The notes below the pieces were generated by a model. It made no database searches and had not been told where the DNA came from. It worked only from the letters and a program-made list of their open reading frames with translations. Source: Eledone cirrhosa (Eukaryota). Taken from it: DNA of 64,000 nucleotides. Where the stretch lies: NCBI GenBank assembly GCA_964016885.1, contig OZ024741.1, forward strand, positions 13,144,001-13,208,000. The letters are read 5' to 3'. Position numbers and translations under genes: made by a program. Positions 9,746 through 64,000 of this stretch are shown piece after piece (position 1 is the stretch's first letter; each line of letters opens with the position of its first letter).

Positions 9746-9956
9746 CTGTCTGACGCGTGGAACATCGCCGGTAAGCTTTAATGTTAATTTCTATACAAAA
9801 AACCGAACTAATTGTTTGAAAAAACATAACATTTTGTAGATTAACCCCCAAGCTGAATTGTCAGCTGGGCGGTAATCCCATTTTTCGCCCCTGTAGGGGC
9901 GAAAATTTTATTTTAAAAATTTGTTTTAAATTATCAGATTTTACAAACTAAATAAC

Positions 9957-11849
9957 TTGAGCAACACAAGAACGCTGGAGAACGTTAATAGAGAAAAGAG
10001 AGAGAAAGAGGCAGATATTAACGTTATATTTGCTTCTGCTACTATGGACGTCGTCATAGATACGACTGTCAACAAAGAGGAAAAAATATTACCACTTGAA
10101 GATTTTAAAATTTCTACCGCCGAAGTGGAGAAAAATAACAATAACACACAGGAAAACACAGGAATTAAACCCATTAACATACATACACATGAAAAAGACA
10201 TCAACAACTCTACATCTACATCTACACATAATGTTTCACCTCGACAAGGAACTGAGATGTCCAACACCGAGGCTAACAACGATAACAACAACAACAGCAA
10301 CACCACACAAAAACAAGAAAATGTCTTTCGCTGAAACAGTGAACAAAAAACAAGATTTTATAAATCTTGATATCTCCAACGCAATAGATATGCTCCAGCA
10401 AGGGAGAAAATTTGTAACTTTCGAAGAAAGAGGTGGGTTTAGAATTAACTCACCCCTTGAAATAAAGGAAGACACAATTCGCAGATCAGTCACCTTTAGG
10501 ACTGTGTCAAATACCACAAGAAAGCCGACATTTGTTAACCAAGCAGATATAGAAGATACTTTCAAGGAAATTCTAGCAAATGTCGATTTTCTCCAGCGAG
10601 GAAAACAGTACGGAAGTGTTTCCGTACTGTTTAAAAGCGAGGCACTCGCACAAAAACACTCTGTGACACCAATGGTGTCAAAATCATATACCCTTTTCCC
10701 TACATACATGGGGAAAAAGGACACAAAAAATAAAAATAAAAAACATACCTCCAAACATTAACATCTGGTGGATCTTGGCTGGCTTCGTAGAGCCCGAAAC
10801 TGATATGATTCTTTCGATACGAAAATCTATTCGACAAGGTGGGCGGGTACAGATTTGGAGATTCTGTTGCAAATGAAACCGGAGAGAATCTCCAAAATAC
10901 CCGAAAGATTCGTCATCGATAATAACAACAAAATAAACATTTCGGTAGAAGGACGAAAATTTCATTGCTTTCGCTGTGGTAGCACAGCACACCTAAAAGC
11001 CTCTTGTCCACAAACACACAACAACAACATCATAAAAAAAACGCTATTACCAACACCAACACCAAAACAACCACAACGACAGACGAAACGAGCAACCACA
11101 CCAAAACAAACAGACACTCAACCAACAACAACAACAGAAAAAACAGAGACAACACCCCTAAAGAACCACCCCATCCCACTCCATCAAATACTACCACAAA
11201 CACACACACCGAAACACCACCACCACACAACATACCCCTACCCCACACACCTGACGATGATTATTCATCGACGGTTGAAGCTGCTTCTCCTTCTTTAAGT
11301 GAAGAAGAGGGAGAACCGCGGAAATCTAAAAAGCAAAAAAAGAGACACCACAAAACCCCCAAAACTCCAATCACCAACCACAGACACAAACAACCACAGA
11401 CACAAACAACAACACAAACAACACCGCAGTCAAACATCCCCCTATCAGCAAAACCAGCACCAACACCACCCCAAACACAAGCACCCACTATAAAAAGAAA
11501 ACTCCCAGACGAACAACAAACTAAAACAACACAACAAAAACACAAACAACAATACGCATACATCAACACAAACAACAAGAGTTTGATGGAGGTCATCTCC
11601 CCAAACCCCAAGGTGGTGACGGAGGGCAAAACTTTCGTCAAGGCAGAATCGTCTCCACACCTTAAACTTATAAGGGTTTCTATTGAAATCTATAATGACC
11701 TAACAAATAAATTTTCACAGGACGTGGGCAACCCCTGCCACAAACCCATCAACCGCGTCCTGTTAAAATGTTTCCCCACCCACCCAACACCCTATCCAGC
11801 ACCCAAATGGAGATTGAACAACCCGATCTCCAGGAAACGAAAAGGTAAG
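9957..11849 (+). pseudogene. Tx1 ORF1 (gag-like, zinc knuckle), frameshifted
   Basis: Overlapping ORFs 9957-10334, 10096-10761, 10855-11298 (ISVEGRKFHCFRCGSTAHLKASC) and 11004-11897; homologous to ISVEGKRPKCFRCGSKTHLRAFC in copy 3. Confidence 0.8.
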
Positions 11850-11889
11850 TGCACCTTTCGTCCTTTTTCTCCAACTTTTCTTCACCAAC

Positions 11890-61742: not shown

Positions 61743-62115
61743 TTTTTTATTTTTTATTTTATTTTTTATTTTTTATTTTTTATTTTTTATTTTTTATTTA
61801 TTTTTTATTTTTTATTTTTTATTTTTTATTTTTTATTTTTTATTTTTTATTTTTTATTTTTTATTTTTTATTTTTTATTTTTTATTTTTTATTTTTTATT
61901 TTTTATTTTTTATTTTTTATTTTTTATTTTTTATTTTTTATTTTTTATTTTTTATTTTTTATTTTTTATTTTTTATTTTTTATTTTTTATTTTTTATTTT
62001 TTATTTTTTATTTTTTATTTTTTATTTTTTATTTTTTATTTTTTTTTTATTTTTTTTTTTTATTTTTTTTTTTTTTTTTTTCACTTTTCATTTTTTTTTT
62101 TTTTTTTTTTTTTTT
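61743..62115. repeat. (TTTTTTA)n heptamer tract and poly-T
   Basis: Seen directly. Confidence 0.96.
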
Positions 62116-62562
62116 TCACTTCATAAACCTTGTAAATAACATTATTCTTTCTGCACCTTCTCTTTAACATGTGCGACACCACCATTCTACACTAATACAT
62201 ATCACTATCATTTGATAATGCATAAAAATACTGAAACCGGTAATAGACAATTATTAAATATATAAATAGATAAATAAATGTCATTGTTAATTAATAAATA
62301 AATCAACTAATAACTTAACACTTCACACAAAGTAAAACATTTAGTTTTAATCATTTTCTAACCCAGAAAAAAAGAGAGAAAGAAATAAAAAAGGAAAAAA
62401 AAATATTTTTCTTCCTAATAATCGTGTCTTTCTCCCTGTTTTCATATATATATATATATATATATATATATATATATATATATATATATATATATATATA
62501 TATATATATATATATATATATATATATATTATAATAATAATATTAATAACAATAATAATAAT

Positions 62563-64000
62563 GATTTCTTTATTGGCCACAAGGGCTGACATCAAGAAAA
62601 ACATTACAGACGGCACAGGACGGAACAGGACGGTACGATGTGGGTTTTGTGCGTGTAAAGATTTTTATTATTTATATAAGAAAAGAAAAAAAAGGACATA
62701 GAAACATATATATATATATAAACAATAAAAATGAAAATTGAAACAATGAAAAATTACCCAATAGGCGAAAACCACACAAAAGCCCACGGCCACCCTGACC
62801 ACCAGGGCAAGCGCCCTCTCTCAATTTTTCCATTTCTCAAGCTACAGACGTATATTCAGAGTGGTCCCGTTCACTCGGACCATTCTCGCTACATTCACCC
62901 ACCTTTCAACAAACTTGCTAGAGGGCAGCACTTGCCTCTCCACCCTGATTGTCCTCTTCAAGTGAAACTTGAAGAAGTTAATTAGGGATTCGCCGAAGAG
63001 GAAAGTGTCTGTCTTTAACCCTTTTAACCTTGTCCACCACACAATCTCTTTCGCCATGGCCACCAAGCAGATGAAAACCGCCTACCCTTCCTCCTCGAAG
63101 GAAGACGGCGAGACCATCTGCACAATGGATTCAGTCGACAACCGGATCAGTCCTACACGCGACAGAAACTGTTCGACATAGCTCCACAAGTCAGCAATGC
63201 TCGGGCACTGGACGAGTGCGTGCACGACGGTTTCGTCGCTCTGCGCGCATCTCGGACAGGCTCGGCTGACGGCACTTCCGTGCCTGTAGAGCTTATCACG
63301 AACCGGCAACACTCCCCGGTAGCACTGCCAGGCCAAGAATTTTTGGAAGTTATCCATCGGCCCTGGGCTGAAAGTTCTCCGGAAGAGAGCAAACAGCTGA
63401 TCTTCTTCGACGCCCAGGATCTCTCCGGAATGTCGTCGCACTTCCCCTCCACTAGTCCTCTATAGACGCCGGGGTGGATGTTCCACCGATACTGGTGCCC
63501 AGCTGGCAGAGGGCAGTGAGCGCCTGGAGACATTCCAGTTTCCAAGCGCTATCCCTCGGTCTTTTTCTGACCCAGGACTGCAGCTCCTTCAAGGAGACGA
63601 GCTGTGGGAAAACGTGCCTGGCGAACGGCGACCACACCTGTTCACTATCAAGGAAGCACCAGAGATGTCGCAGCCTCAGAGCATGTTTGCGCATCATCAG
63701 CCATGGCATGCTCAGTCCTCCACGCAACGGGTGTTGACAGCAGATGGATCGTCTGACCATGGGAGCGCGTCCCTTCCACAAAAAGCGGAAGAGGAGGCGC
63801 TCCATTTTGGTGAGAGTTGGGCTGGAGCAAGGGACGACGGTGAGGCGGTAGCAGATGACAGATGCGATGTACGCATTCACCACCTCCGCCCGGCCTTTCA
63901 GGGACAGCTTACTCTCGGCCCATTTCTGGATGAGGGAGGCCACCCTGCTCGTCACCTCGTTCCAGTTTTTCTCCATCTGGAGGTCCGGTCCGAATCAGAC
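62563..64000 (-). mobile_element. Tx1-clade LINE copy 5, 3' part (continues beyond the window)
   Basis: KLSLKGRAEVVNAYI, CPRCAQSDETVVHALVQC; ends GGCCAATAAAGAAATC followed by (ATT)n. Confidence 0.93.

What the first reader, a model, noticed from the sequence alone, without database searches (positions are those of the whole stretch)
9751..64000. Radiation of tail-less Tx1-clade LINEs that appear to partition different microsatellites as targets
Seen: five divergent copies all end at AATAAA(T)GAAA with no poly(A) and run into a microsatellite, and the same repeat type flanks the 5' end wherever that end is in the window. Copy 1 is in (TATC)n on both sides, as is the 5' side of the sister fragment at 15709; copy 2 is in (TA)n; copies 3 and 4 are in (ATT)n on both sides; copy 5 has (ATT)n at its 3' end. 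Copies 3-5 share the junction GAAATC-ATTATT. Established: the Tx1 clade includes sequence-specific families, among them the fish microsatellite-specific Kibi and Koshi. Inference: related APE endonucleases have diversified to (TATC), (TA) and (ATT) targets in this lineage. I do not know of a description of this set but cannot check.
Basis: partly seen in the sequence, partly recalled or inferred. Interest (0 to 1): 0.75.

Follow-up and report, generated by a model that had tools for sequence, protein, structure and literature searches.

The report
Sister LINEs with two microsatellite targets
Five related jumping-gene families in this animal genome (likely an octopus) split into two branches, one sitting in TATC repeats and one in ATT repeats at thousands of sites, likely because their DNA-cutting enzymes differ; this is a known strategy, but with two targets I did not find described for this group, and the proposed third (TA) target does not hold up.

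Summary
Observation confirmed, interpretation partly. The five copies are five Tx1-type LINE families (70-81% DNA identity) ending AATAAA(T)GAAA plus two bases, with no poly(A).

There are two target classes, not three. Families 1 and 2 use (TATC)n; families 3-5 use (ATT)n. Copy 2 in (TA)n is an outlier of a TATC family. Exact counts behind the shared 3' end: 9,760 ATT, 6,419 TATC, 211 TA.

The repeats are targets, not tails. The 5' junctions of truncated copies carry the family's own repeat in 35 of 54 (TATC) and 31 of 52 (ATT), never the other's, against about 1-2% background. Twelve hand-picked insertions show 8-20-bp duplications starting two bases after GAAA.

Endonuclease trees follow target class with moderate support, and the clades differ in the loop known to probe the target. 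An abundant tRNA-like SINE shares the 3' hairpin and the ATT signature, so it likely uses the ATT branch's enzymes.

Microsatellite targeting is known for Tx1 (Kibi, Koshi, crocodilian families); I did not find these targets in the papers searched. Repbase and Dfam could not be searched. The scan has found this system before on other DNA of this genome.

The parts
9680..9751 (+). (TATC)n tract at the 5' end of copy 1; its last bases are a degenerate repeat remnant also seen in front of other full-length family-1 copies
9752..15524 (+). Copy 1: full-length (5.77 kb) family-1 LINE, TATC class; ORF1 with a weak CCHC knuckle, ORF2 with APE endonuclease, RT and zf-RVT, broken by frameshifts and stops
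   Evidence: 93% to a full-length relative
15525..15702 (+). (TATC)n tract decaying to TACC, 3' of copy 1
15712..15881 (+). Internal endonuclease fragment of a family-1-like copy (86-91% to other family-1 copies); its 5' flank is copy 1's 3' tract
28709..28848 (.). (TA)n tract 3' of copy 2 (atypical for its family)
28849..30224 (-). Copy 2: 5'-truncated 1.37-kb copy of family 2, a TATC-class family; junction reads TATCTAT inside a degenerate TA tract
41519..41985 (-). Chain of three tRNA-like SINE copies separated by short ATT tracts, directly downstream of copy 3 and in the same orientation
41993..42020 (-). (ATT)9 tract 3' of copy 3
42021..48031 (-). Copy 3: full-length (6.0 kb) family-3 LINE, ATT class, broken ORFs
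   Evidence: 97% to a full-length relative
48032..48097 (-). (ATT)22 tract shared by copy 4 (3' flank) and copy 3 (5' flank): head-to-tail stack
48098..52660 (-). Copy 4: family-4 LINE, ATT class, 5'-truncated inside ORF1
   Evidence: 97% to a full-length relative
52660..52726 (.). (ATT)22/(AAT)22 tract: 5' flank of copy 4 and 5' flank of the opposite-facing RLE-type fragment
52727..53552 (+). 3' fragment of an unrelated LINE with a restriction-like endonuclease motif (Dong/R4-like; label recalled, not tested), flanked by (AAT)n on both sides
62531..62562 (-). (ATT)n tract 3' of copy 5, running into (TA)n
62563..64000 (-). Copy 5: 3' part of a family-5 LINE, ATT class; continues about 2.96 kb beyond the window to the family's 5' end (4.4 kb in all, internally deleted)
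16661..16846 (-). Solitary SINE copy with a 12-bp target duplication starting ATTATT two bases after AGAAA
36364..36549 (+). Solitary SINE copy with a 19-bp duplication starting GTTAT

Best explanation
The five copies belong to one young, abundant lineage of Tx1-type LINEs that has split into a TATC-targeting branch (families 1, 2) and an ATT-targeting branch (families 3, 4, 5), likely because the two branches' APE endonucleases nick different short motifs. Shown: each branch sits in its own repeat, in one orientation and one phase, at both junctions; target DNA begins two bases after the final GAAA; where it can be read, a duplication of about 8-20 bp starts there with no added tail. Inferred: target-primed reverse transcription, with the bottom strand nicked at about 5'-ATAAT/R (ATT branch) or 5'-AGATA/Y-complement, possibly one base over (TATC branch). 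The RT would be loaded on a 3-bp-stem, 5-nt-loop hairpin just before AAUAAA, and read-through repeat bases on the RNA may help prime. The duplication leaves a target on both sides, which would explain head-to-tail stacks. An abundant tRNA-like SINE with the same hairpin and the ATT signature is likely copied in trans by the ATT branch.
For: 3' flanks of 144 primary copies chosen without any repeat in the query: family 1 TATC 26 of 29, family 2 22 of 29, family 3 ATT 26 of 29, family 4 28 of 28, family 5 29 of 29. 5' flanks of truncated copies: 35 of 54 TATC and 0 ATT for families 1-2; 31 of 52 ATT and 0 TATC for families 3-5; full-length 27 of 27; 11 ran off the locus. Background 0.94% and 1.56%; class-by-class Fisher p 1.6e-19. 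Reverse orientation 0 of 133 at 5' ends and 2 of 144 at 3' ends. First four target bases at +2: TATC 50 of 58; ATTA 81 and GTTA 2 of 86. Genome-wide exact counts 6,419 TATC, 9,760 ATT, 211 TA, 9 TGTC; reversed-pattern control 0. Duplications with unique sequence: L011, L034, L047, L053, L136, L155; L287, L294, L297, L299, L304, L313. Endonuclease tree: TATC clade 89/83, ATT clade 92/89; RT tree: TATC clade 99. The stretch aligning to the L1 betaB6-betaB5 loop reads NRSGT in the TATC branch and NR(I/M)GS in the ATT branch, and the L1 R155 position is Tyr versus Cys; both elements affect nicking in L1 (PMC1950540, passages). Hairpin pairs 1-3 are 96-100% paired in 189 LINE ends with a G-C to A-U change, and 94-99% in 106 SINE ends with C-G to G-C. 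SINE ends: 74 of 81 start ATTA/GTTA at +2, none TATC; 15 of 17 even in loci fetched for TATC families.
Against: No biochemical test. Target class changes once on the tree and 33 endonuclease columns differ with it, so no residue can be blamed; both class branches are below the tool's threshold for strong support, and family 4 is unresolved in the RT tree. PMC1950540 reports that loop grafting did not transfer specificity in a modular way. Among truncated copies 19 of 54 and 21 of 52 lack the class repeat at the called 5' junction (families 3 and 5 are weakest: 1 of 7, 8 of 20); some are mis-called mosaic junctions or insertions at the very end of another element, but I did not resolve them all. 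The automated duplication search did not beat its mismatched-pair control convincingly (true pairs 27 of 96 and 20 of 96; control 44 of 296 and 62 of 299), so that claim rests on hand-picked cases, only two of them in the ATT branch. The full-length 5' ends were defined by eye at the repeat boundary, so 27 of 27 is partly circular. The hairpins are not stable against shuffles (z -2.3 to +1.0).
Confidence: 0.7

Rival explanations
1. Target class is set mainly by RNA-DNA pairing: transcripts read through AAUAAA into the source copy's flanking repeat, and only nicks whose 3' end pairs with that extension are extended. The endonucleases would be loose Y/R-step nickers.
For: AATAAA lies only about 6 bases before the element's end, so a polyadenylated RNA would normally include flanking repeat (established spacing, recalled). 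6 of 79 family-4/5 ends read GAAATT-ATTAT instead of GAAATC-ATTAT, as a one-unit register shift would give. Family-4 ends are followed by ATTATT-Y-nonT only 8 times genome-wide. The SINE shares the hairpin of both branches yet uses only ATT.
Against: A G at the first target base is kept in 2 of 86 LINE and 3 of 81 SINE junctions, i.e. a terminal mismatch is tolerated at a fixed nick phase. Endonuclease phylogeny follows class. A purely RNA-set target should switch often by read-through of off-target copies, yet only about 1 of 100 listed ends has the other branch's diagnostic bases.
Confidence: 0.2
2. The repeats are element-encoded tails, and the 5' association arises only because copies pile up next to one another.
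For: 34 of 133 primary copies with readable 5' ends have another LINE 3' end (33) or SINE 3' end (9) within 130 bases upstream (42 in all), so many 5' repeats are other elements' 3' flanks.
Against: 91 of 133 have no such neighbour. Insertions at single-motif sites show the motif in both copies of the duplication with no added units (L053, L011, L034, L136, L294, L304). Piling onto earlier copies' repeats in one orientation itself needs a preference for the repeat.
Confidence: 0.04
3. Insertion is random and copies survive or are assembled preferentially in microsatellites.
For: The genome is very rich in simple repeats.
Against: Fixed strand, fixed phase and family-specific repeat class; the commonest repeat, TA (8.2% background), is hardly used.
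Confidence: 0.02
4. On the side claim only: the SINE is mobilised by some other LINE that happens to share the ATT motif, for example the Dong/R4-like element.
For: No LINE with a tail identical to the SINE's was found in the held loci (a local search only); SINE and LINE tails match at about 16 of 24 bases (by eye). The Dong-like element uses the same tract.
Against: The Dong-like fragment faces the AAT strand, the SINE the ATT strand like the Tx1 copies. Same loop, compensatory stem, same GAAA+2 register and same A/G tolerance at the first target base.
Confidence: 0.2

Closest known systems
Kibi ((TC)n) and Koshi ((TTC)n), teleost Tx1-clade LINEs (PMC4494074 passages and section 15; PMC3812793 passages)
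   Same: Tx1-type APE LINEs that insert into a microsatellite; related families with different repeat units.
   Different: Known targets are purine/pyrimidine-strand repeats; here (TATC)n and (ATT)n. Both classes are abundant and young in one invertebrate genome. Relationship to the Kibi/Koshi lineage not tested (no reference sequences on hand).
Crocodilian Tx1 families in (TTCC)n/(TTTC)n, and Tx1-Mar with SINEU (PMC4494074)
   Same: Several Tx1 families in one genome with different targets; a SINE assigned to a Tx1 partner by shared target preference.
   Different: SINEU has snRNA heads and a poly(A) tail, and for SINEU-1 no LINE sharing its 3' end was found. Here a tRNA-like SINE without poly(A) shares a 3' hairpin and register with the LINE.
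Dong (R4 clade, (TAA)n; PMC3812793 passage)
   Same: Same microsatellite as the ATT branch; a Dong-like fragment shares the tract at 52660-52726.
   Different: Restriction-like endonuclease (recalled) and opposite strand.
Stringent L1-clade LINE/SINE pairs of maize/sorghum and Chlamydomonas (PMC3747384 passages)
   Same: 3' hairpin with compensatory changes shared by LINE and SINE.
   Different: Plant and algal L1s; the algal pair ends in poly(A); no microsatellite target stated in the passages seen.
L1-Tx1 families of Octopus vulgaris (PMC13282606, parts 1-2 of 3 read)
   Same: 13 recently active L1-Tx1 families, 5 Dong-R4 families and about 900 SINE families are tallied.
   Different: No target-site analysis in the text read; supplement and Zenodo library not seen; identity of this genome's species not established.

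Membership tests
L1/Tx1 group of APE-type non-LTR retrotransposons | ORF2 with N-terminal APE endonuclease, RT and C-terminal zinc region | tested here: met
   Pfam Exo_endo_phos, RVT_1, zf-RVT in order; endonuclease aligns to human L1 EN, E about 1e-5
Tx1 clade | RT closer to Tx1 than to L1 proper | tested here: met
   Same query scores 250 and 246 bits on TX1/YTX2-named vertebrate proteins and 124 bits on human L1 ORF2p; score comparison, not a tree
Tx1 clade | Monophyly with reference Tx1 families in an RT tree with L1 and other outgroups | tested here: inconclusive
   Trees hold TX1-named proteins but no L1 or other-clade outgroup; the nearest relatives are unnamed proteins at 41-52% identity
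Tx1 clade | Gag-like ORF1 with CCHC knuckle (feature recalled) | tested here: inconclusive
   zf-CCHC below cut-off in 2 of 6 ORF1 pieces (E 0.0036, 0.042)
Microsatellite-specific Tx1 families (criterion of PMC4494074: more than 20% of flanks of one type) | One repeat type in over 20% of flanks | tested here: met
   76-100% of 3' flanks per family; 59-65% of truncated 5' flanks per class
Microsatellite-specific Tx1 families | Target-site duplication containing the target | tested here: met
   12 hand-picked LINE cases; automated count not clearly above control
Kibi/Koshi lineage | (TC)n, (TTC)n or (TTYC)n target | tested here: not met
   Targets are TATC and ATT; TC only 2 of 58 and TTC-like 2 of 86
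Kibi/Koshi lineage | Phylogenetic grouping with Kibi and Koshi | not testable with these tools
   No named Kibi or Koshi sequence was returned
   3 of 29 relatives of copy 2; 211 versus 6,419 genome-wide; 25 of 30 fetched TA-flanked ends map to families 1-2, 5 unassigned, none to 3-5
Sequence-specific endonuclease as cause | Class-specific nicking in vitro | not testable with these tools
   Needs purified enzymes
SINE-LINE partner pair | Shared 3' tail structure and insertion signature | tested here: met
   Hairpin and GAAA+2 register; ATTA/GTTA in 74 of 81; 25 duplications of 10-19 bp starting at +2
SINE-LINE partner pair | Trans-mobilisation shown experimentally | not testable with these tools
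   Needs a retrotransposition assay

The most novel reading that the evidence does not exclude
One Tx1 lineage kept a single RNA tail signal while its endonuclease switched between ATT and TATC through a few changes (loop tip S/T versus I,M/S; the L1-R155 position), and its ATT branch drives the genome's dominant SINE by stringent hairpin recognition. This would be an animal L1/Tx1-clade LINE-SINE pair with a shared structured tail, and a near-minimal natural pair for how APE endonucleases change target.
Probability: 0.35. Interest if true: 0.7.

Novelty: new variant of a known kind. Interest (0 to 1): 0.5.

Why it matters
A 2013 review states that the mechanism of microsatellite targeting by APE-type LINEs is not well understood (PMC3812793, passage), and grafting the Tx1L loop onto L1 did not transfer specificity (PMC1950540, passages). 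Two endonuclease groups from one lineage, with the same RNA tail, different short targets and thousands of insertions each, make the question directly testable: enzyme versus RNA pairing, and which residues. The system also accounts for the head-to-tail LINE/SINE stacks in this genome's microsatellites, and it affects use of GATA and AAT markers here. It is not a new kind of element.

Tried and rejected
(TA)n family: rejected.

Search for further target classes: the zf-RVT profile (44,777 candidates, 150 scored, 30 fetched) returned only ATT-branch copies; by eye 25 of 28 with a 3' end run into ATT and none into TATC. tblastn in held loci found further TATC subfamilies only. Both samples are biased.

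Automated duplication calling: not clearly above its control. Patterns aimed at non-repeat sites gave 384 (TATC branch) and 8 (family 4) places; 38 fetched, 6 usable duplications. They did not settle whether the TATC nick lies before T or one base later.

Expression: no RNA holder listed; no reads were laid. ARAGORN found no tRNA in the window, so the SINE head's tRNA origin rests on box-like motifs seen by eye. Structure prediction was not run.

Literature: eight answered searches found no description of TATC- or ATT-specific Tx1 families. Repbase, Dfam, Kojima and Fujiwara 2004 and all supplements were not seen.
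Full report
Observation. The copies are 70-81% identical in DNA and carry APE endonuclease, RT and zf-RVT domains in broken frames. Copies 4 and 3 are stacked head to tail around one (ATT)22 tract. Copy 4's 5' tract is shared with an opposite-facing fragment of an RLE-type LINE (Dong/R4-like; label recalled). 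Copy 5 continues beyond the window and starts behind a family-4-like copy. The window lies in a 3.0-Gb assembly; an octopod host is my inference from size, repeat content and the literature tallies, not a test.

Families. Each copy's last 370 bases, without repeat, were searched in the genome: 1,035-2,827 candidates each, 40 scored, 30 fetched. I extended 60 loci to 8 kb and took natural near-full-length copies of 5.5-6.0 kb as references. Each window copy is a separate family; nearest relatives are 86-99% identical, so the families are young. After removing window copies and one duplicate, 144 primary copies remained.

Flanks. 3' side: family 1 TATC 26 of 29; family 2 TATC 22 of 29 (TA 3, neither 4); family 3 ATT 26 of 29; family 4 28 of 28; family 5 29 of 29. 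5' side of truncated copies, which cannot be a tail: families 1-2 TATC 35 of 54, TA 5, ATT 0; families 3-5 ATT 31 of 52, TA 1, TATC 0 (family 3 1 of 7, family 4 22 of 25, family 5 8 of 20). Full-length copies: 27 of 27, partly circular because I set the starts at the repeat boundary. Eleven copies ran off their locus. Background in the same loci is 0.94% TATC, 1.56% ATT, 8.2% TA. The reverse orientation occurs in 0 of 133 5' flanks and 2 of 144 3' flanks. The 5' misses include mosaic junctions and insertions at the very end of another element, but not all were resolved.

Genome-wide counts. Exact matches of one shared 3'-end pattern followed by 12 bases of repeat: ATT 9,760, TATC 6,419, TA 211; with 10 bases of TGTC, 9; reversed controls 0. 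The pattern omits family 4 and one TATC subfamily. In the first 100 listed, 99 TATC ends and 98 TA ends carry the family-1/2 bases before AATAAA, and 99 ATT ends carry the family-3/5 bases. Of 30 TA-flanked loci fetched, 25 map to families 1-2, 5 were unassigned, none to families 3-5. Copy 2's own 5' junction reads TATCTAT. There is no TA family.

Target, not tail. The target starts two bases after GAAA: TATC in 50 of 58, ATTA or GTTA in 83 of 86. Twelve insertions show a duplication of about 8-20 bp that starts there and runs into unique sequence, with no extra repeat units (L011, L034, L047, L053, L136, L155; L287, L294, L297, L299, L304, L313). These are hand-picked; the automated count was not clearly above a mismatched-pair control, and only two are ATT-branch. 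Some sites hold a single motif (L053, L011), so the recognised unit is likely 5-6 bases and microsatellites are its densest supply. 42 of 133 primary copies sit within 130 bases of another LINE or SINE 3' end, as expected if each insertion regenerates the target.

Endonuclease. Seventeen endonucleases from this genome form one clade (99/99) that splits into TATC (89/83) and ATT (92/89) branches. The RT tree supports the TATC branch (99) and leaves family 4 open. Thirty-three columns separate the classes. Two lie in the stretch aligning to the L1 betaB6-betaB5 loop (NRSGT versus NR(I/M)GS) and one at the L1 R155 position (Tyr versus Cys). PMC1950540 (passages) shows that these parts shape L1 nicking, and also that loop grafts were not modular. 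With one switch on the tree this gives candidates, not causes.

RNA tail and SINE. All families end in a predicted 3-bp stem with a 5-nt loop just before AAUAAA; pairs are 96-100% kept in 189 ends, with a G-C to A-U change in family 3. The fold is not stable against shuffles, so support is from covariation, counted by copies rather than events. An abundant 190-bp tRNA-like SINE has the same loop, a stem with C-G changed to G-C, and the same GAAA+2 end. Of 81 SINE ends, 74 start ATTA/GTTA and none TATC; 68 have the motif on the 5' side against 10.5% background; 25 have 10-19-bp duplications starting at +2, 24 of them preceded by a pyrimidine. I saw the tail likeness and ATT signature before consulting earlier notes; the hairpin was prompted by them and then tested.

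Mechanism. Most likely target-primed reverse transcription with branch-specific nicking, hairpin-directed RT loading and possibly help from read-through repeat bases (0.7). RNA pairing as the main selector is the serious rival (0.2). Tail-only and passive models are nearly excluded.

What is known. Microsatellite-specific Tx1 families are described: Kibi, Koshi and crocodilian families (PMC4494074, passages and section 15; PMC3812793, passages). The RT scores twice as high on TX1-named proteins as on human L1, but no tree with reference clades was possible. An Octopus vulgaris annotation counts 13 active L1-Tx1 families without target analysis (PMC13282606, parts 1-2 of 3). Stringent L1-clade SINE pairs are described from plants and algae (PMC3747384, passages). 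PMC4824008 (passages) did not identify the SINE. Eight searches found no TATC- or ATT-specific Tx1 family; Repbase, Dfam and supplements were not seen and may hold one. Earlier notes of this scan report the same system on other DNA of this genome; they are not independent support.

Verdict. A real, well-supported two-target system: a new variant of a known kind. Interest 0.5.

Noticed in passing
window 52727-53552 (+): 3' fragment of an RLE-type (Dong/R4-like) LINE flanked by (AAT)n on both sides, sharing its 5' tract with copy 4 from the other strand.
   Followed up: partly
L171/L180 versus L181/L185: Family 3 has two forms with the same ORF2 and 3' end (94-97%) but unalignable 5' 2.2 kb: a 5'UTR/ORF1 swap; both start in (ATT)n.
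   Followed up: partly
L004, L028, L030, L055, L060, L159 and others: Further TATC-class subfamilies (74-85% to families 1-2) with an AATAAAAGAAA or AATAAATAGAAA end.
   Followed up: partly
3' flanks of L063, L109, L112, L122, L127, L133, L138: Several other recurring sequences begin right after ATT tracts; probably 5' ends of further ATT-associated families.
   Followed up: no
L084, L111, L203, L206: Truncated copies whose 5' junction abuts the last bases of an earlier LINE or SINE with the repeat missing, suggesting target-site deletion at the first repeat unit.
   Followed up: no
G000 list: 5 of 150 listed zf-RVT matches lie in open frames of 1,070-1,150 codons, so near-intact ORF2 copies exist.
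   Followed up: no
window 281-8522: 33-bp tandem array of about 250 copies (94% matches) with open frames of over 2,700 codons on the minus strand.
   Followed up: no
window 32387-34258 (-): 624-codon RT frame of another LINE clade, ending in a short tandem before (TA)n.
   Followed up: no
window 17354-19452 (-): Broken frames that look Penelope-like (label by eye and recall; no Pfam hit).
   Followed up: no
window 26342-27413 and 27711-28711: Inverted pair of about 1 kb at 92% identity just downstream of copy 2.
   Followed up: no
window 55035-55894; 30444-31084; 25496-26233 with 60464-61228: 57-bp tandem array (15 copies); 321-bp tandem pair; and a 750-bp dispersed repeat that starts after (ATAC)n in both copies.
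   Followed up: no
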